DNA of 36,638 nt from Armatimonadota bacterium (GTDB taxonomy: Bacteria; Armatimonadota; Fimbriimonadia; Fimbriimonadales; GBS-DC): NCBI GenBank assembly GCA_037445735.1, contig JBBIJY010000025.1, positions 1 through 36,638 on the forward strand, in the 5' to 3' direction. The notes beneath the pieces are model-generated. The model was not told the DNA's origin and made no database searches. It saw nothing but the letters and a program-made list of their open reading frames with translations. The first letter of the stretch is position 1. The number at the start of each line of letters is the position of its first letter. Shown piece by piece: positions 2,877 to 30,778 of the stretch. Made by a program: the position numbers and the translations under genes.

Positions 2877-3009
2877 GAGGCTGCTCGAAAAATCCACCTA
2901 AAGGCAAGGATGCCCCTCACCCCTACCCTCTTCCCAGAGGGAAGAGGGAGTTTATCAGCCCCTCTCCCCCTTTGAGGGAGAGGGTACGGGTGAGGGGGCG
3001 AACAGCCTC
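2877..3009. mobile_element. MITE-like element with palindromic CCCTCT(C/T)CCC..GGGA(G/A)AGGG units
   Basis: Terminal IR GAGGCTGCTCG (2877-2887) / CGAACAGCCTC (2999-3009), 10/11 match; flanks ACGGTCAAC / AAGGTCAAC (8/9), a possible target-site duplication; the interior is itself an inverted repeat. Confidence 0.6.
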
Positions 3010-7938: not shown

Positions 7939-8062
7939 TCCCTCTCCCCGCTGGGGAGAGGGAGAAACGAAGCCCCTCTCCCCGCCTGCGGGGGAGAGGA
8001 TACGGGTGAGGGGGTTTCTGAAGCCCCTCTCCCCGCTGGGGAGAGGGTACGGGTGAGGGGGC
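7939..8062. repeat. Cluster of three palindromic CCCTCTCCCCG..GGGGAGAGG repeats (REP-like)
   Basis: Three hairpin units in tandem; shares GAGAGGGTACGGGTGAGGGGG with the 2877-3009 element. Confidence 0.85.
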
Positions 8063-26917: not shown

Positions 26918-27078
26918 GGCGTTCCTCCCTGCAATGGGCTGTCCCAGTGTGCATAGCACCTCCTGCGTCGCGCTTCCCGATTCGCCATGCCTGGCACGCT
27001 TCCTGCAAAAAGAGTGCCATCAGGCAGGAATGGCACCGCCCACAGGTGTATTCTGAATCAGCAGGAGGTCAAGCGCCA

Positions 27079-27882
27079 ATGCGAGACAGAGGCTTTACGC
27101 TGATTGAGCTGCTGGTGGTAATCGCCATTATTGCTATTCTGGCGGCGATTCTGTTCCCGGTGTTCGCGCAGGCGCGCGAAAAGGCGCGTCAAACCCAGTG
27201 CCTGAACAATCTGCGGCAGCTGGGCATGGCGTTCGAGATGTATCGCTCCGACTTTGAGGGACGCAATCCCGGTCCGGGCGACAGCGGACACTGCTGGGGC
27301 ACATGGAGCCAGCCCGACTGGCCATGGTGGATGACGGGCTTCATGTCGCGCTTCGAAGCGCAGTGGGTTCATTGCTACCCGGTGCTGCGCAATATCTACG
27401 ACCCCGACTCGCCTGTCAACCAGCTGTGGATACTGGCGGGGAATGTGAAGGCGGGCGTCATCTACCCCTATGTGAAGAACCCCGATGTGTACATCTGCCC
27501 GTCAGATCGGCGTGGGCGTGAGAAGCTGCTGAGCTACTCGATGAACGCGGTGGCGAGCTACATTCCCGAAACGGTGGTGGAGCGTCCAGGTCAGTTCGTG
27601 ATGCTCGTCGATGAGGCGGAGACGCTCAACGACGGCTACTTCTACGCGCTGGCACCCGGCGGCGGCACCGGGCGGTTCGTGGACTGCCCCTCGATCATGC
27701 ACAGCAACGGCGCGGTGTTCCTCTTCTTCGATGGGCATTCGAAGTGGGTGCGGGCGCGGCACACGCGCGAGCAGGCGCGCATCGATCGCTGCATCGACAC
27801 CGTGCCGAAGCATTACTTCTGCCCGAAAATCCCCTTCCCCGAATCGCGCCAGTATCAGGAAGGATGTCAGCGCGATAGCTGA
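27079..27882 (+). CDS. Prepilin-type N-terminal cleavage/methylation protein with DUF1559 and H-X9-DG motif
   Basis: [69 protein letters not shown]. Confidence 0.93.
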
Positions 27883-27886
27883 ATCA

Positions 27887-27914
27887 GAGGGGCACGGGTT
27901 ACCCCGCGCCCCTC
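27887..27914 (-). terminator. GC-rich hairpin with GNRA loop between convergent units
   Basis: Minus strand GAGGGGCGCGGG-GTAA-CCCGTGCCCCTC; only a weak U-tract. Confidence 0.6.
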
Positions 27915-28085
27915 ACAGGTGAAGGGAGTTTCGCGGATGTTGCAGGGCGCGACCACCGCGTCCCCACAGGCTCTTTCAGGCGATGAGCGGAGCCAGCTCC
28001 GCCACGCCTGGGAGCGCGTCCATCCCTGATCTACGCGTTTCAACGCCCACCCGCCCGTGCAAGCGGGTGCAACCACGCCTGTGAG
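27912..28085 (-). ncRNA. Unassigned multi-stem structured RNA candidate
   Basis: Closing stem CTCACAGG/CCTGTGAG, inner stem GTTGCA/TGCAAC, four internal hairpins; G-U pairs mostly favour the minus strand. Confidence 0.5.
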
Positions 28086-28103
28086 TATGGCGAGAAGGCA
28101 GTG

Positions 28104-28340
28104 TCAGGATGCCTTCGCCTTGCGGCGCTTGCGAACATCCTTCAGACCGAAGCGGAAGCGAGTGAACGCCTCCTCGATCTTGCCCTCCATCACCAGTTTC
28201 GCGAACTCCTTCGCGCCCTCCACCTTCGCCTGATTCGGCTTGCGTCTCCGTAGTGCCTTCACTGCATCTGCCATGTCGATCTCACCTGCCTTGAATGCCT
28301 TAAGGATACCCTCGATATAAGCCGTTCGCTCATCTGCCAT
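28104..28340 (-). CDS. Small Lys/Arg-rich hypothetical protein (78 aa)
   Basis: ATG at 28340 after a GGAGGTGA RBS, with a consensus promoter upstream; sequence MADERTAYIEGILKAFKAGEID...KDVRKRRKAKAS. Confidence 0.85.
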   Translation of the reverse strand: MADERTAYIEGILKAFKAGEIDMADAVKALRRRKPNQAKVEGAKEFAKLVMEGKIEEAFTRFRFGLKDVRKRRKAKAS

Positions 28341-28372
28341 AGATCGGTCACCTCCGCAGAATGGACAGCAAG

Positions 28373-28402
28373 ATTGTACCATGCGCATGACACCCATGTC
28401 AA
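28373..28402 (-). promoter_or_regulatory. Strong sigma70-type promoter with overlapping palindromes
   Basis: TTGACA-18 bp-TACAAT with TG extension; inverted repeat TGACA-N4-TGTCA (28388-28401) and palindrome CATGCGCATG (28380-28389). Confidence 0.8.
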
Positions 28403-28449
28403 GTGTTGCACGCACTTTTTGGCAGAAAATCGGTGCGATTCGCCCCGTT

Positions 28450-30417
28450 TCAGATATAGATTCGATAGGTGGGAACCTGAAAGAGCAGTGTAACAAGCGA
28501 CCAGAGCGACCCCATCGTGAAGTCGCCCAGGATCAGCCCCAGCGCGAAGGGCAGCCCGAACCGATGCGCCCGCAACCCGCCCAAACGCATCAGCAGCACC
28601 TTGAAGCACCAGCCCAGAAAGAAAGCGAACCAGAAGTAGTCCACCGCGTAGCTCACGCCCAGTGCGTAGCCTGTTGGGTGGAACGGGAAGCCCGCGAAGG
28701 CGTTGCGCAACGCCCGCAGCCCCAGCACCATCAGCGCACCGCCCGCCAGATAGTACCAGCGGTTCGGATTGCGGAACGGCTCCTCCACCAGCCATGTGTT
28801 CAACCGCCCGAACGACTCGTTGCCCACCCAGTTTTTGAAGCCGCGACACTTCGCCTCCGCGCCATACAGATAGGTCACATGCAGGTTCGCCCAGCACACA
28901 ATCGCGAACGCCAGCACCGACACAGTTAGAATCAGCAGCCCCATTCGCAGCGGCGCAATCCCATAACTCTGCCCCATGCGCAACGCCTCCAGCTGGTTCG
29001 GCATCGGATGGCACCGATAGCCGCGATTGAACCAGTAGAGCGACTGCAACACGGTCAGGTTCTCCACGCCCAGCCCGCGCAGGGTGAACACATCGAACAA
29101 AATCCGCTGCGGGTTCACAAAGTAGATTTCGTGGGGTGCGCCCAGCTCCGCCCGCACGCGCGTAATCGTGAGCGCCAGCAGGAAATAGATGCCAAAAAAG
29201 AGCACGGCGACCCAGCCATCCATGCGCAACAGCAGCATGTTATAGAGAACGAGGATGCCGACGCCGAGCGCCAGCCCCAGCCAGCTGAGGCGGTAGAGGA
29301 AGCGTTCCGGATGAGAAGCGCCCCACGCCAGCTGCCACGCCTCGCGGAAGGTGAAGCGCGCGCTCCACAGCAGCAAGATGCCCAGCATCAACCACGCACC
29401 TGCCGCCTGCTCGTTCAGAAACGGGAAGCCCCGATTCTCCGCCGCGTCCCAGCCCATCACCGCGCCAAACACCTGAAACAGCTTGCGCGCCATAAAGAAG
29501 AACCATGCTGAAAACGCCAGATCGGGCGGCATCAGATACGCCAGCCCAATCGCGAACGGATACGCCGAGATGCGAAACGAACCGACCGCGCTCCACGGGC
29601 GCGTCGTGAAGTAGGGACCTATGTCATACAGTTTAATCCATTCGATATGGGGCAGCGCAGGGAACAGCACATGCAGCCCGTTCAGCCCGCTGATGCTCAT
29701 CGCCGTGCCGAACCCCATCCACATCGCGCGCGACTGCCAGAACACGCCCGACGGCTCCACCATCGCCAGCGGCAACTGAATCAGCGGAAAAGTGAGCCGC
29801 TCATGCTGAGTCCACTGCTTCAGCACCAGAAAGTTCAGGCACAGGCACATCAGCACGAGCGTCAGAATCAGCCCCGCCCATAGCAGCAACGGCTTCACCC
29901 ACGCCATCAGCCAGTCCAGCCGATAGGGCAGCATACCGCCATCATAATAGGGGCGCAGGACGCGCTCGTCCCACACGAACAGCTCGCGCGGGATAAAGGC
30001 GAAGAATCGCTCGCGCCAGCCCGATTCAGGTGTGCCATAGCGCTGCGCGTGCCCGATGGCGCCGAACAGGTTCTGCAGCATATCATGCCCTGCGAACACC
30101 GCGCCCGTCACGATGATAATGTAGATAATCAGCAGCTCTACCGCCGACAGTCGCCACGCGGGTCGCCAGCGCGTCAGAGCCAGATTGAGCATCGCCACAA
30201 TGAACAGCGTGAACACGGGCGTGATAAAGATGGGCAGGCTGGTGACATCGAGGGTGTACCATCGCACCTCGATCACGGTGATCCAGAAGATGTTGAGGGT
30301 CATCAACAGCAGTCCGATCAGCAGGGCGCGTGGGCGCAGACGCGGCGGCTCCCGGCCCGCTTCTGACAACGGCGCCATCAGCACCTGCAACCTCTTCCCC
30401 AGCGGCACACGCGCCAT
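28450..30417 (-). CDS. Polytopic membrane protein, DUF6785/DUF6784-like (putative transporter)
   Basis: About 655 aa with many TM helices; KQWTQHERLTFPLIQLP, TRVRAELG, FPFHPTGY and PFALGLILGDF motifs. Confidence 0.78.
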   Translation of the reverse strand: MARVPLGKRLQVLMAPLSEAGREPPRLRPRALLIGLLLMTLNIFWITVIEVRWYTLDVTSLPIFITPVFTLFIVAMLNLALTRWRPAWRLSAVELLIIYIIIVTGAVFAGHDMLQNLFGAIGHAQRYGTPESGWRERFFAFIPRELFVWDERVLRPYYDGGMLPYRLDWLMAWVKPLLLWAGLILTLVLMCLCLNFLVLKQWTQHERLTFPLIQLPLAMVEPSGVFWQSRAMWMGFGTAMSISGLNGLHVLFPALPHIEWIKLYDIGPYFTTRPWSAVGSFRISAYPFAIGLAYLMPPDLAFSAWFFFMARKLFQVFGAVMGWDAAENRGFPFLNEQAAGAWLMLGILLLWSARFTFREAWQLAWGASHPERFLYRLSWLGLALGVGILVLYNMLLLRMDGWVAVLFFGIYFLLALTITRVRAELGAPHEIYFVNPQRILFDVFTLRGLGVENLTVLQSLYWFNRGYRCHPMPNQLEALRMGQSYGIAPLRMGLLILTVSVLAFAIVCWANLHVTYLYGAEAKCRGFKNWVGNESFGRLNTWLVEEPFRNPNRWYYLAGGALMVLGLRALRNAFAGFPFHPTGYALGVSYAVDYFWFAFFLGWCFKVLLMRLGGLRAHRFGLPFALGLILGDFTMGSLWSLVTLLFQVPTYRIYI

Positions 30418-30454
30418 CGGGGAAGAGTCTACCCAGGGTATAATCTTTGTGAAG

Positions 30455-30778
30455 ATGAAGCGAGCCGTTGTGCTGGAGATACCCGAATCGATTCGGTCAG
30501 CGCTGGAGGCGGCAGGCTATTCTACCGAGACGCTTTCAGCAGAGGCGCGAAAACAGCTGGCAGCCGCGTTGTATCAAAAACGGGTGCTGACCCTCTCGCA
30601 AGCGGCGCAACTGGCAGGGATGAGCCTCTGGGAGTTTATCCCTGTGCTTGCCGAACAGGGCGTGCCGGCTCTCACTTACGATCCAGAGGAACTGGAGCAT
30701 GATTGGAAAGCGATTCAGAGACTGTCTAGGAAAATGAGCAAGCAACGGAGTCGCAGGACGTTTGTGCCAGACGGCTGA
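30455..30778 (+). CDS. UPF0175-family putative antitoxin
   Basis: LAAALYQKRVLTLSQAAQLAGMSLWEFIPVL..YDPEELEHD; TATAAT at 30439-30444; the 3' end runs into a MITE. Confidence 0.85.
   Translation: MKRAVVLEIPESIRSALEAAGYSTETLSAEARKQLAAALYQKRVLTLSQAAQLAGMSLWEFIPVLAEQGVPALTYDPEELEHDWKAIQRLSRKMSKQRSRRTFVPDG

What the first reader, a model, noticed from the sequence alone, without database searches (positions are those of the whole stretch)
27887..28402. Compact unit of strong promoter, small basic protein, structured RNA and closing hairpin: candidate ribonucleoprotein or nucleoid-protein system
Seen: a near-consensus promoter and an ideal GGAGGTGA RBS drive a 78-aa Lys/Arg-rich protein with two similar helical segments (ILKAFKAGEIDMADAV and FAKLVMEGKIEEAF), each followed by a basic patch (RRRK, RKRRKAK). 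The structured element begins 18 nt after the stop, and the first terminator-like hairpin lies beyond it. Inferred: an abundant nucleic-acid-binding protein co-transcribed with, and perhaps binding, its own RNA.
Basis: partly seen in the sequence, partly recalled or inferred. Interest (0 to 1): 0.75.

Follow-up and report, generated by a model that had tools for sequence, protein, structure and literature searches.

The report
Small basic gene plus stray CRISPR-repeat
A small, positively charged protein gene with very strong expression signals is real and confined to one family of Armatimonadota bacteria, but the folded RNA behind it is not its partner: it is a species-specific trailer made of ordinary hairpins plus a recently inserted lone CRISPR repeat.

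Summary
The unit lies on the minus strand. The promoter (11 of 12), the GGAGGTGA ribosome site and the 78-aa basic ORF are real. The gene is under strong purifying selection (median dN/dS 0.08) and occurs in 26 of 28 other genomes of its family, but nowhere else that I searched. It matches no protein family, solved structure or fold. It has only a weak TPR-like two-repeat look.

In 22 of 26 orthologous loci a hairpin with a T-rich tail starts 9-38 nt after the stop codon. Only one sister species shares the GC-rich trailer.

The trailer holds three hairpins and a 71-nt piece that the sister species lacks. That piece carries a 37-nt solitary repeat, 31 of 37 identical to the repeat of type I-C CRISPR arrays in sister genera. 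This genome has no type I-C cas genes and no such array. It has six scattered lone copies, all in sense orientation to the flanking genes, and five are missing at the same site in the sister species.

The protein's function is unproven. My best guess is an abundant nucleic-acid-associated protein in a lineage without detectable HU. A second, order-wide 63-aa basic protein fits the role of HU substitute better. Interest is moderate.

The parts
28373..28402 (-). Sigma-70-type promoter TTGACA-18-TACAAT with TG upstream of the -10 hexamer
   Evidence: Matches 11 of 12 consensus positions. The equivalent promoter scores >=10 of 12 in 24 of 27 orthologous loci. It is one of 51 sites this good in the genome.
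28348..28355 (-). Shine-Dalgarno sequence GGAGGTGA, 7 nt before the ATG
   Evidence: Read from the sequence. GGAGG lies within 17 nt of the start in 27 of 27 loci.
28104..28340 (-). CDS of a 78-aa basic protein (P0001). It is predicted to form four helices and has a Lys/Arg-rich C-terminal tail. It belongs to an orphan family.
   Evidence: Translation. Found in 26 of 28 other genomes of the family. Median dN/dS 0.081 over 269 pairs. AF2 model with helices at 4-17, 23-30, 37-51 and 55-61, pLDDT 72.7, pTM 0.41. No family, PDB or fold match.
28037..28073 (-). Solitary type I-C-like CRISPR repeat: 4 nt, a 9-bp stem with two G-U pairs, a 4-nt loop and an 11-nt tail ending in TTGAAAC
   Evidence: Rfam CRISPR-DR9 scores 25.2 bits over the full length, below the gathering score of 45. 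It is 31 of 37 and 30 of 37 identical to array repeats of G009 and G013/G015. There is one copy in the window. It is one of six strong lone copies in the genome.
28002..28072 (-). 71-nt piece absent from sister species G002. It comprises the repeat, 21-22 further nt and a 13-nt direct duplication (CTCaCAGGCGTGG / CTCcCAGGCGTGG). Its placement is ambiguous by 13 nt, up to 28015..28085.
   Evidence: Pairwise alignment with G002. A contig of run X2 also has the short form, skipping 139 nt with 66 nt between. There is no other copy of the piece in the genome.
27970..28015 (-). GC-rich hairpin H1 of the trailer (-28.0 kcal/mol)
   Evidence: Fold. The hairpin is also predicted in G002. It is absent from the other 24 loci.
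27941..27968 (-). GC-rich hairpin H2 of the trailer (-16.1 kcal/mol)
   Evidence: Fold. The hairpin is also predicted in G002.
27887..27914 (.). 12-bp hairpin between the two convergent genes, with no U-run on either strand. It is a probable shared 3'-end or terminator hairpin.
   Evidence: Fold at -27.6 kcal/mol. The terminator scan does not call it. G002 keeps it with changes on both arms. The convergent ORF 26947..27882 (N_methyl + DUF1559) ends 5 nt before it.

Best explanation
The conserved functional unit is only promoter + Shine-Dalgarno + a 78-aa basic helical protein + its own terminator. It is a monocistronic, probably strongly and constitutively expressed gene, confined to one family of Fimbriimonadales-like Armatimonadota.

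The folded RNA behind it in this genome is not a partner RNA. It is a genus-specific 3' trailer in the gap between two convergent genes. It is built of three GC-rich hairpins, the last of which is shared with the convergent gene. It also holds a 71-nt insert found only in this species. The insert's core is a lone copy of the 37-nt repeat that forms type I-C CRISPR arrays in sister genera.

This genome has no type I-C cas genes and no such array. It carries six scattered lone copies, which come and go between sister species and always lie in sense orientation in transcribed spacers.

Inferred, not shown: the protein folds as two TPR-like helix pairs. It uses its invariant RxRKPNxxK linker, RFGLKxVR motif and Lys/Arg tail to bind nucleic acid (nucleoid DNA or ribosomal or other RNA) without sequence specificity, in a lineage that lacks detectable HU. 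I give this functional part about 0.35. I give the structural statements about 0.85.
For: The gene is real and autonomous.
- It occurs in 26 of 28 other family genomes. With the single-protein query it was found in 0 of 32 genomes of other families of the order.
- With the family profile, 300 other genomes of the phylum gave only 3 hits, at E 0.002-0.01, each inside an ORF of 252-458 aa. I do not take these as orthologues.
- Median dN/dS is 0.081 over 269 pairs.
- The promoter is kept in 24 of 27 loci and GGAGG in 27 of 27.
- Flanking genes differ between genera.

The trailer is not conserved.
- A hairpin with a T-rich tail starts 9-38 nt after the stop in 22 of 26 loci.
- Only G002 shares the trailer, and it lacks the 71-nt piece. 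The short form is also seen in a contig of run X2.

The repeat is a CRISPR repeat.
- It aligns over the full length of Rfam CRISPR-DR9.
- It is 81-85% identical to arrays with a 70-76-nt period in G009, G013, G015, G017 and G014.
- In G009 the array sits between cas3 and cas1-cas7(Csd2)-cas8c(Csd1).
- Csd1 is found in 10 of 29 family genomes and in 0 of 4 genomes of this genus.
- This genome's only cas locus is I-B-like, with Cas6, and its arrays use a different 30-nt repeat.

The lone copies are scattered and turn over.
- There are six strong lone copies plus one weak one.
- Five of the six are missing at the orthologous site of G002.
- All six lie in sense orientation to their neighbouring genes.
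- The stem is paired in 93.8% of cells, with 3 pairs changed on both sides; 6 of 500 shuffles reach this.

For the function guess.
- pI is 10.2.
- The protein is one of very few non-ribosomal hits among 20 small, SD-preceded, Lys-rich basic ORFs in the genome.
- HU (PF00216) is found in 1 of 61 genomes of the order, marginally, although the control rings in 9 bacterial genomes and 81 of 201 genomes of the phylum have it.
- The histone fold is found in 0 of 61.
Against: On function.
- There is no expression or binding data. No RNA run holds the locus.
- Codon usage is not like that of ribosomal-protein genes: it sits at the 32nd percentile of the background and the 4th of ribosomal genes. The contrast in this genome is small.
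- The protein is confined to one family, whereas HU is missing from the whole order. A different 63-aa basic protein is found in 60 of 61 genomes of the order and fits an HU-substitute pattern better.
- The TPR-like look would suit protein-protein binding as well.
- The model is only moderately confident (pTM 0.41).

On the trailer.
- With only two genomes sharing it, I cannot exclude a genus-specific role for the hairpins.
- The 71-nt difference could be a deletion in G002 between the 13-nt direct repeats.
- The repeat scores below Rfam's gathering score (25.2 against 45).
- The six own copies were part of the training set of model R1, so their R1 scores are not independent.
Confidence: 0.6

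Rival explanations
1. One reading: the small basic protein is co-transcribed with a structured RNA, binds it, and the two form a ribonucleoprotein.
For: The trailer follows the stop on the same strand, and no canonical terminator lies between them. It folds far better than shuffles, z = -4.48. The protein is very basic.
Against: The protein is conserved in 26 of 28 other family genomes, but the trailer is shared with only one of them. In 22 of 26 loci a terminator-like hairpin follows within 38 nt of the stop. Part of the trailer is a recent 71-nt insert. The rest is typical hairpin filling between convergent genes.
Confidence: 0.03
2. The protein is a lineage-specific ribosome-associated or ribosomal protein, comparable in kind to small basic additions such as bTHX.
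For: It is small, basic and highly conserved, with strong promoter and SD signals, a monocistronic layout and a basic tail. In the screen of small, basic, SD-preceded ORFs, nearly all other hits are ribosomal proteins.
Against: Codon usage is unlike that of the ribosomal genes. It does not stand in for bS21, which is present in 59 of 61 genomes. It matches no ribosomal family or structure. Its family-level restriction would be unusually narrow.
Confidence: 0.15
3. The protein is a small TPR-like adaptor or regulator that binds another protein, for example RNA polymerase or a chaperone client, and does not bind nucleic acid.
For: The profile search's only hits outside the family are a TPR-repeat protein with 5 matched stretches (E 1.4e-4) and a coiled repeat protein. 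hhalign aligns 50 columns to one and a half TPR units. The four predicted helices fit an A-B-A-B pattern. The KPN turn sits where TPR motifs have their conserved proline; that placement is recalled.
Against: No Pfam TPR model hits any of the 19 members even at E <= 10. The hhalign probability is only 32%. No fold match reaches above Z 2.9. There is no conserved neighbouring gene to suggest a partner.
Confidence: 0.25
4. The lone CRISPR repeats, including the one in this trailer, are functional RNA modules. They could be processing or stability hairpins, perhaps cut by the resident I-B Cas6 or Cas5, or they could be mobile elements spread by an integrase. On this view they are not neutral debris.
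For: All 6 of 6 copies are in sense orientation to the flanking genes, and 5 of 6 lie 3-55 nt before a start codon or between co-directional genes. The stem is kept by G-U and compensatory changes. Five of six are recent gains relative to G002. Direct duplications of 13 and 11-12 nt flank two inserts. Three copies keep the tail GAGGATTGAAAC, which resembles the end of the resident 30-nt repeat.
Against: Six sites is a small sample. Orientation bias can arise from replication or strand effects. No cognate type I-C Cas is present. Three inserts show no duplication. The window's copy has the most altered tail and no downstream gene. There is no RNA data.
Confidence: 0.2
5. The 71-nt difference is a deletion in the G002 lineage, by slippage between the 13-nt direct repeats, and not an insertion in this genome.
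For: 12 of 13 nt are identical in the direct repeats that flank the piece. One other lone copy (C14) is shared by both species, and the G002:C8 copy has a partly deleted counterpart here. So lone copies are also lost.
Against: A 13-nt duplication needs an origin of its own, most simply a target duplication at insertion. Four other copies are likewise absent from G002, and for two of them (C11, C5) the G001 and G003 matches are also shorter by about the insert length; those were not aligned base by base.
Confidence: 0.25

Closest known systems
Type I-C CRISPR arrays of sister genera (G009, G013, G015, G017, G014)
   Same: 37 nt long. The same GTTGCACCCGC...GGGCGGGTG stem and a TTGAAAC end. 30-31 of 37 positions are identical.
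   Different: It is a single copy with no second repeat. No leader is recognised. There are no type I-C cas genes in the genome. It lies in the 3' trailer of an unrelated gene.
Solitary repeat units (SRUs) and RNA anti-CRISPRs (Racr) of viruses and plasmids. I saw PMC10651486 as title and start of abstract in a search listing, and one passage of PMC8616872.
   Same: Lone copies of a CRISPR repeat outside any array. They are transcribed from a nearby promoter and come and go between close relatives.
   Different: These copies sit in ordinary chromosomal spacers, not in a recognised mobile element. They do not mimic the host's own (I-B, 30-nt) repeat, and the genus has no type I-C system to inhibit.
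Small basic chromatin or ribosome-associated proteins of prokaryotes (HU, Sul7d/Sac7d, bTHX); names recalled
   Same: Size of 8.9 kDa, pI 10.2, strong expression signals, monocistronic layout, and strong conservation within its clade.
   Different: No sequence or fold relation to any of them. It is all-helical. It is confined to one family. No abundance or binding data exist.
Tetratricopeptide (TPR) repeats
   Same: Two helix-turn-helix units of about 34 residues with small residues at the turn and a Pro-Asn after the second helix. There is a weak profile match to a TPR protein.
   Different: No Pfam TPR model matches. It has only two units, plus a basic tail. The predicted packing matches no solved TPR.
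Intergenic palindromic repeats (REP / BoxC-type) of this genome (earlier notes e1-5072792, e1-2102707)
   Same: Short GC-rich hairpins that fill gaps between genes. One such element takes the place of the trailer behind the orthologue in G001.
   Different: The trailer's hairpins H1-H3 and the 71-nt piece are single-copy in the genome. The lone CRISPR repeats form a separate, much smaller family of 6-7 copies.

Membership tests
CRISPR repeat, type I-C class (Rfam RF01322 CRISPR-DR9) | Sequence and stem-loop match to the repeat family | tested here: inconclusive
   The alignment is full length (37 of 37) with the 9-bp stem, but scores 25.2 bits, below the gathering score of 45. Against real arrays of the same bacterial family it is 31 of 37 and 30 of 37 identical. 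R1 gives 50.6 bits, but this copy was in the training set.
CRISPR repeat, type I-C class | Repeats clustered and regularly spaced with spacers | tested here: not met
   There is one copy in the window and no further copy in 27800..28450 with filters off. The k-mer scan finds no array of this repeat in the genome. The six copies lie on six different contigs.
CRISPR repeat, type I-C class | Cognate cas genes (cas8c/csd1, cas7/csd2, cas5d) in the genome | tested here: not met
   Csd1 is found in 0 of 4 genomes of the genus and 10 of 29 of the family. This genome has a single Cas5 hit and a single Cas1 hit, both in an I-B-like locus with Cas6.
CRISPR repeat, type I-C class | Processing of the transcript at the base of the stem into a crRNA | not testable with these tools
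   No RNA run holds the locus.
Viral/plasmid solitary repeat units acting as RNA anti-CRISPR (Racr) | Carried by a mobile genetic element | tested here: inconclusive
   The neighbours are a DUF6785/DUF6784 membrane protein, a prepilin-like DUF1559 protein and a MoxR ATPase. I did no dedicated prophage or plasmid search.
Viral/plasmid solitary repeat units acting as RNA anti-CRISPR (Racr) | Mimics the repeat of the CRISPR-Cas system it meets | tested here: not met
   The resident arrays use a different 30-nt repeat, and the cas locus is I-B-like. No type I-C system is found in the genus.
TPR repeat proteins (Pfam TPR clan) | Match to a TPR profile | tested here: not met
   No TPR family is among the hits of any of the 19 members at E <= 10. 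There is only an indirect likeness to a TPR protein: E 1.4e-4 in a search of 1.84 billion proteins, and hhalign probability 32%.
HU/IHF (PF00216) or histone-fold nucleoid proteins | Sequence or fold membership | tested here: not met
   There is no Pfam hit. No PDB sequence hit is better than E 0.095. Foldseek's best is E 2.3 and VIA's best Z is 2.9 (the fold searches alone would be inconclusive).
Ribosomal protein bS21 | Profile match, or absence of another bS21 gene | tested here: not met
   P0001 gives no Pfam hit. A separate bS21 gene lies at G000:C5:42632-42790 and is found in 59 of 61 relatives.
VbhA antitoxin (PF18495) | Profile match above the cut-off and a FIC-toxin partner gene | tested here: not met
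   The score is 13.8 bits against a cut-off of 25.9. Sub-threshold hits occur in 16 of 19 members, over 20 residues only. There is no adjacent partner ORF, and the flanks vary between genera.
Intrinsic (Rho-independent) terminator | GC-rich hairpin followed by a U-run | tested here: not met
   In the window there is no such site between 27850 and 28110 on either strand, and hairpin 27914..27887 is followed by UGAUUCAG. In orthologues the feature is met in 22 of 26 loci.

The most novel reading that the evidence does not exclude
Type I-C CRISPR repeats live on in a lineage that has lost the type I-C cas genes. They persist as a small family of orientation-specific hairpin modules that insert into transcribed spacers: 5' leaders, gaps between genes of one operon, and this gene's 3' trailer. 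Sometimes they insert with an 11-13-nt target duplication. They act on RNA, as processing sites for the resident type I-B Cas6 or Cas5 or as stability elements. This would be a domesticated or self-spreading use of CRISPR repeats in a cellular chromosome.
Probability: 0.15. Interest if true: 0.75.

Novelty: new variant of a known kind. Interest (0 to 1): 0.45.

Why it matters
The report has three consequences.

1. It removes a false lead. There is no conserved protein-RNA pair here.

2. It leaves a clean, testable orphan. This is an 8.9-kDa basic protein with some of the strongest expression signals in the genome. It is conserved at dN/dS 0.08 in one family of a lineage that lacks detectable HU and histone-fold proteins. 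Whatever organises DNA or decorates ribosomes in these bacteria is unknown. This protein and the order-wide 63-aa basic protein noticed in passing are the obvious candidates.

3. It documents lone type I-C CRISPR repeats scattered in an ordinary chromosome without cognate cas genes. Five of six were gained since the split from a sister species, and all are in sense orientation. Lone repeats are mainly discussed for viruses and plasmids. A chromosomal set with this much turnover gives a way to ask how repeats leave arrays and whether cells reuse them.

Tried and rejected
- **Protein families.** NCBIfam gave no hits. PHROGs gave only E 0.035-0.3.
- **ESM Atlas.** No usable hit.
- **PDB sequence profile.** The best hits were a designed protein (E 0.095) and a 21-residue stretch of methionine synthase (E 0.1). 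I judged both to be chance.
- **Fold searches.** Foldseek against PDB had its best hit at E 2.3. VIA-wide had its best at Z 2.9.
- **Longer or fused homologues.** None found, which is weak evidence.
- **Internal repeat.** hhalign of the two halves gave probability 0.6%.
- **Expression.** No RNA holder is listed for the locus. Only DNA contigs could be laid.
- **Codon bias as a proxy for expression.** No signal.
- **A multi-copy element as the source of the trailer.** blastn-short of the 237-nt trailer and of the insert against the genome found only the locus itself and 13-19-nt chance matches. The best were 17-mers at C20 and C2, E 0.031.
- **Arrays elsewhere with this exact repeat tail.** The 20-mer found one non-CRISPR coding match in 185,579 species genomes.
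- **A decayed mini-array in the trailer.** No second repeat scores above 9.4 bits.
- **Replacement of bS21.** Rejected.
- **Literature.** A search for 'Armatimonadetes' + 'nucleoid-associated proteins' + 'histone' found 0 papers. A search for 'bacterial histones' / 'absence of HU' / 'nucleoid-associated' listed nothing on this lineage among the 10 shown. I did not consult supplementary files.
Full report
**Where the feature is.** Everything in the finding lies on the minus strand.
- The promoter TTGACA-18-TACAAT, with TG upstream of the -10 hexamer, is at 28402..28373 and matches 11 of 12 positions.
- GGAGGTGA is at 28355..28348, 7 nt before the ATG at 28340.
- The ORF runs 28340..28104 and encodes 78 residues.
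- Upstream on the same strand, a DUF6785/DUF6784 membrane-protein gene ends at 28450.
- Downstream, a convergent + strand gene for a prepilin-like N_methyl/DUF1559 protein ends at 27882.
- The window is contig C25 of a 2.78-Mb, 62% G+C draft genome. Sources name homologues of the small protein as Armatimonadetes / Fimbriimonadales.

**The gene is real, autonomous and narrowly distributed.**
- A six-frame search of 60 relatives found the protein in 26 of 28 other genomes of the same family. One of the 26, G003, shows only the first 25 residues at a contig end. The search found it in 0 of 32 genomes of the other four families of the order.
- A profile of 19 members, run over 300 further genomes of the phylum, gave only three hits at E 0.002-0.01. 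All three lie inside ORFs of 252-458 aa, and I do not count them as orthologues.
- The 5.8-billion-protein search returned 29 proteins, all at least 70% identical to the query.
- The HMMER pass over 1.84 billion representatives found two family clusters and two weak repeat-protein hits.
- No longer or fused form was found, which is weak evidence.
- Over a 63-codon ungapped core of 24 loci, 269 of 276 pairs were usable. Median dN is 0.073, median dS 0.719 and median dN/dS 0.081.
- The promoter scores at least 10 of 12 in 24 of 27 loci, and GGAGG precedes the start in 27 of 27.
- In this genome only 51 sites on both strands reach 11 of 12 with a 17-18-nt spacer, and 20 of them are followed by GGAGG and a start codon.
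- Flanking genes fall into three different arrangements by genus. The conserved unit is therefore the gene with its own signals.

**What the protein looks like.**
- It is 8.9 kDa with pI 10.2, 21 K+R and 12 D+E.
- The invariant residues include R31, R33, P35, N36 and K39, and R63-F-G-L-K67, V69 and R70.
- AlphaFold2 with the 19-row alignment gives four helices (4-17, 23-30, 37-51, 55-61) at pLDDT 72.7 and pTM 0.41.
- Nothing known matches. Pfam gives only sub-threshold VbhA and HTH_62 hits. NCBIfam gives none. PHROGs gives none better than E 0.035. The PDB sequence search gives none better than E 0.095. Foldseek's best is E 2.3. VIA-align's best is Z 2.9. The Atlas gives no usable hit.
- The one lead is a TPR-repeat protein that matched in five stretches (E 1.4e-4). 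hhalign aligns 50 columns of the family to one and a half of its TPR units at 32% probability.
A direct test of the two halves against each other failed (probability 0.6%), and no Pfam TPR model hits any member.
- I therefore describe the protein as TPR-like in pattern. I do not file it as a TPR family member.

**The RNA partner idea fails.** I extracted the DNA after the stop codon in all loci.
- In 22 of 26 loci with enough sequence, a GC-rich hairpin with a T-rich tail begins 9-38 nt after the stop.
- The four exceptions are the window, G002, L018 (a hairpin with a T-poor tail) and L027.
- Nothing resembling the window's trailer occurs outside the genus.
- Within the genus, G002 has a protein that is 99% identical. 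It shares the trailer and its three predicted hairpins.
- G001 (94% identical) instead has a copy of the genome's common palindromic repeat.
- The G003 contig ends inside the gene.
- The trailer does fold well (z -4.48). That is expected for hairpin-rich filling between two convergent genes.
- The last hairpin (27914..27887, 12 bp, -27.6 kcal/mol) begins 5 nt after the convergent gene's stop and has no U-run on either side. It probably serves both genes.

**The stray CRISPR repeat.**
- Rfam gave one sub-threshold hit in the trailer: CRISPR-DR9 at 28073..28037, 25.2 bits against a gathering score of 45. It aligns over all 37 positions with the 9-bp stem.
- The hit lies inside a 71-nt piece that G002 lacks. 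The piece is bounded by a 13-nt direct duplication with one mismatch.
- A contig of a related population in run X2 also has the short form.
- The piece is single-copy in the genome.
- A search of the family's 29 genomes with 96 nt around it hit, over exactly the 37-nt element, real CRISPR arrays in G009, G013, G015, G017 and G014 at 79-85% identity. These arrays have a 70-76-nt period.
- The window's copy is 31 of 37 and 30 of 37 identical to their repeats. Its two stem changes make G-U pairs on this strand.
- In G009 the array lies between cas3 and cas1, cas7 (Csd2) and cas8c (Csd1), which makes it a type I-C system.
- Csd1 is found in 10 of 29 family genomes but in 0 of 4 genomes of this genus.
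- This genome's single cas locus has Cas6, Cas7, Cas5, Cas3, Cas4 and Cas1, which makes it I-B-like. Its arrays use a different 30-nt repeat.

**A small family of lone repeats.**
- A fuzzy search found six lone copies on six contigs, 2-8 mismatches from the array repeat.
- A covariance model built from them and five array repeats also found a weak seventh, at 28.2 bits on C30. The six were training sequences, so their scores are not independent.
- The stem is paired in 93.8% of cells. Three pairs are changed on both sides, and 6 of 500 shuffles reach this.
- All six lie in sense orientation to their neighbouring genes. Three sit between co-directional genes (C5, C14, C15). Two sit in 5' leaders 16-20 nt before an SD and start codon (C11, C13). 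The window's copy sits in a 3' trailer.
- At the orthologous sites of G002, five of the six are missing: the window's copy, C15, C13, C11 and C5.
- The C14 copy is shared, and it is degenerate in both species.
- G002 has a copy of its own whose counterpart here is partly deleted.
- The C5 insert is flanked by an 11-12-nt duplication, like the window's 13-nt one. I saw no duplication at C15, C13 or C11.
- The copies therefore turn over quickly. I cannot say by what mechanism.
- The trailer holds no second repeat, so it is not a decayed mini-array.
- Lone repeat units are described mainly for viruses and plasmids. I saw PMC10651486 as a listing with the start of its abstract, and one passage of PMC8616872. 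Earlier notes of this scan report them mostly in phages, and once in a chromosome.

**What the protein may do.** This part is inference.
- In a screen for SD-preceded, Lys-rich, basic ORFs of 50-130 aa, 20 passed. Most are ribosomal proteins, and P0001 is one of very few that are not.
- The order lacks detectable HU. PF00216 was found in 1 of 61 genomes, marginally. The same search rings in 9 control bacteria, and 81 of 201 genomes of the phylum have it, in a family-by-family pattern.
- The histone fold was found in 0 of 61.
- bS21 is present in 59 of 61, so the protein is not a stand-in for it.
- These facts make a lineage-specific nucleic-acid-associated protein plausible.
- Three things speak against ranking P0001 as the main nucleoid protein. 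It is confined to one family. Its codon usage is ordinary (32nd percentile of the background). A different 63-aa basic protein is found in 60 of 61 genomes of the order.
- In the phylum sample that 63-aa protein occurs in 21 of 201 genomes, all in families where one search found no HU.
- I therefore give about 0.35 to non-specific nucleic-acid binding (nucleoid or other RNA), 0.15 to ribosome association and 0.25 to a protein-binding adaptor role. The rest is unknown.
- G054, flagged unpublished, is one of the 61 relatives.

**Verdict.**
- The ribonucleoprotein interpretation is refuted by comparison.
- What remains is an orphan, strongly signalled basic protein of unknown function, and an unexpected chromosomal set of lone type I-C CRISPR repeats, one of which created part of the 'structured RNA'.
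- No expression data were available.

Noticed in passing
whole genome G000 and 60 relatives of its order: HU/IHF (PF00216) was found in only 1 of 61 genomes of the order, as two marginal hits in G031. The control rings in 9 bacterial genomes, and 81 of 201 genomes of the phylum have it, family by family. The histone fold (PF00808) was found in 0 of 61. The main nucleoid protein of this order is unknown.
   Followed up: partly
G000:C1:179369-179557 (-), locus L058:504-692: This is a 63-aa Lys-rich ORF with a strong SD, GC3 of 0.89 and no Pfam hit.
- It is found in 60 of 61 genomes of the HU-less order.
- In the phylum sample it occurs in 21 of 201 genomes, all in families with no HU hit.
- The single-sequence AF2 model has five strands and a C-terminal helix, pLDDT 89.
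- Foldseek gives nothing significant. Sac7d and a Sac7d-derived affitin appear only at E 0.3-1.1.
- It is a candidate HU substitute.
   Followed up: partly
G000: C15:7839-7875(+), C13:75798-75834(-), C5:46756-46792(-), C14:10019-10055(+), C11:24584-24620(-), weak C30:11390-11425(+): These are the other lone type I-C-like repeats of the genome. In four of the five strong copies the next gene downstream begins with a signal-peptide-like sequence. At C15 the repeat sits about 10 nt before the start of a phosphoglycerate-mutase-like gene, judged by eye and not scanned.
   Followed up: partly
window 2913-2997 and 7940-8062; L004 (G001) 38-65 nt after the small gene's stop: Copies of the genome's abundant GC-rich palindromic repeat (CCCTCACCCC box plus a GGGGAGAGGG hairpin). 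Earlier notes of this scan call them BoxC-type. One copy takes the place of the trailer in G001.
   Followed up: no
G000:C45:4385-4480: A two-repeat, one-spacer mini-array of the resident 30-nt repeat lies in the middle of a contig, next to what reads like coding sequence. The other arrays lie at contig ends (C20, C41).
   Followed up: no
L005, L006, L007, L019 (genus g5 orthologues): Here the conserved promoter lies 103-107 nt before the ATG, compared with 24-32 nt in other genera. These orthologues therefore have a long 5' leader of unknown role.
   Followed up: no
window 28012-28028 vs G000:C20:51708-51724: A 17-nt exact match links the non-repeat part of the 71-nt insert to a site 2.7 kb from the C20 CRISPR array. 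At E 0.031 it is about chance level. A second 17-mer from hairpin H2 matches C2.
   Followed up: partly
window 30185-30778 (+): An ORF with a UPF0175 domain, a family that often holds antitoxin-like proteins, lies just upstream of the DUF6785 membrane-protein gene.
   Followed up: no
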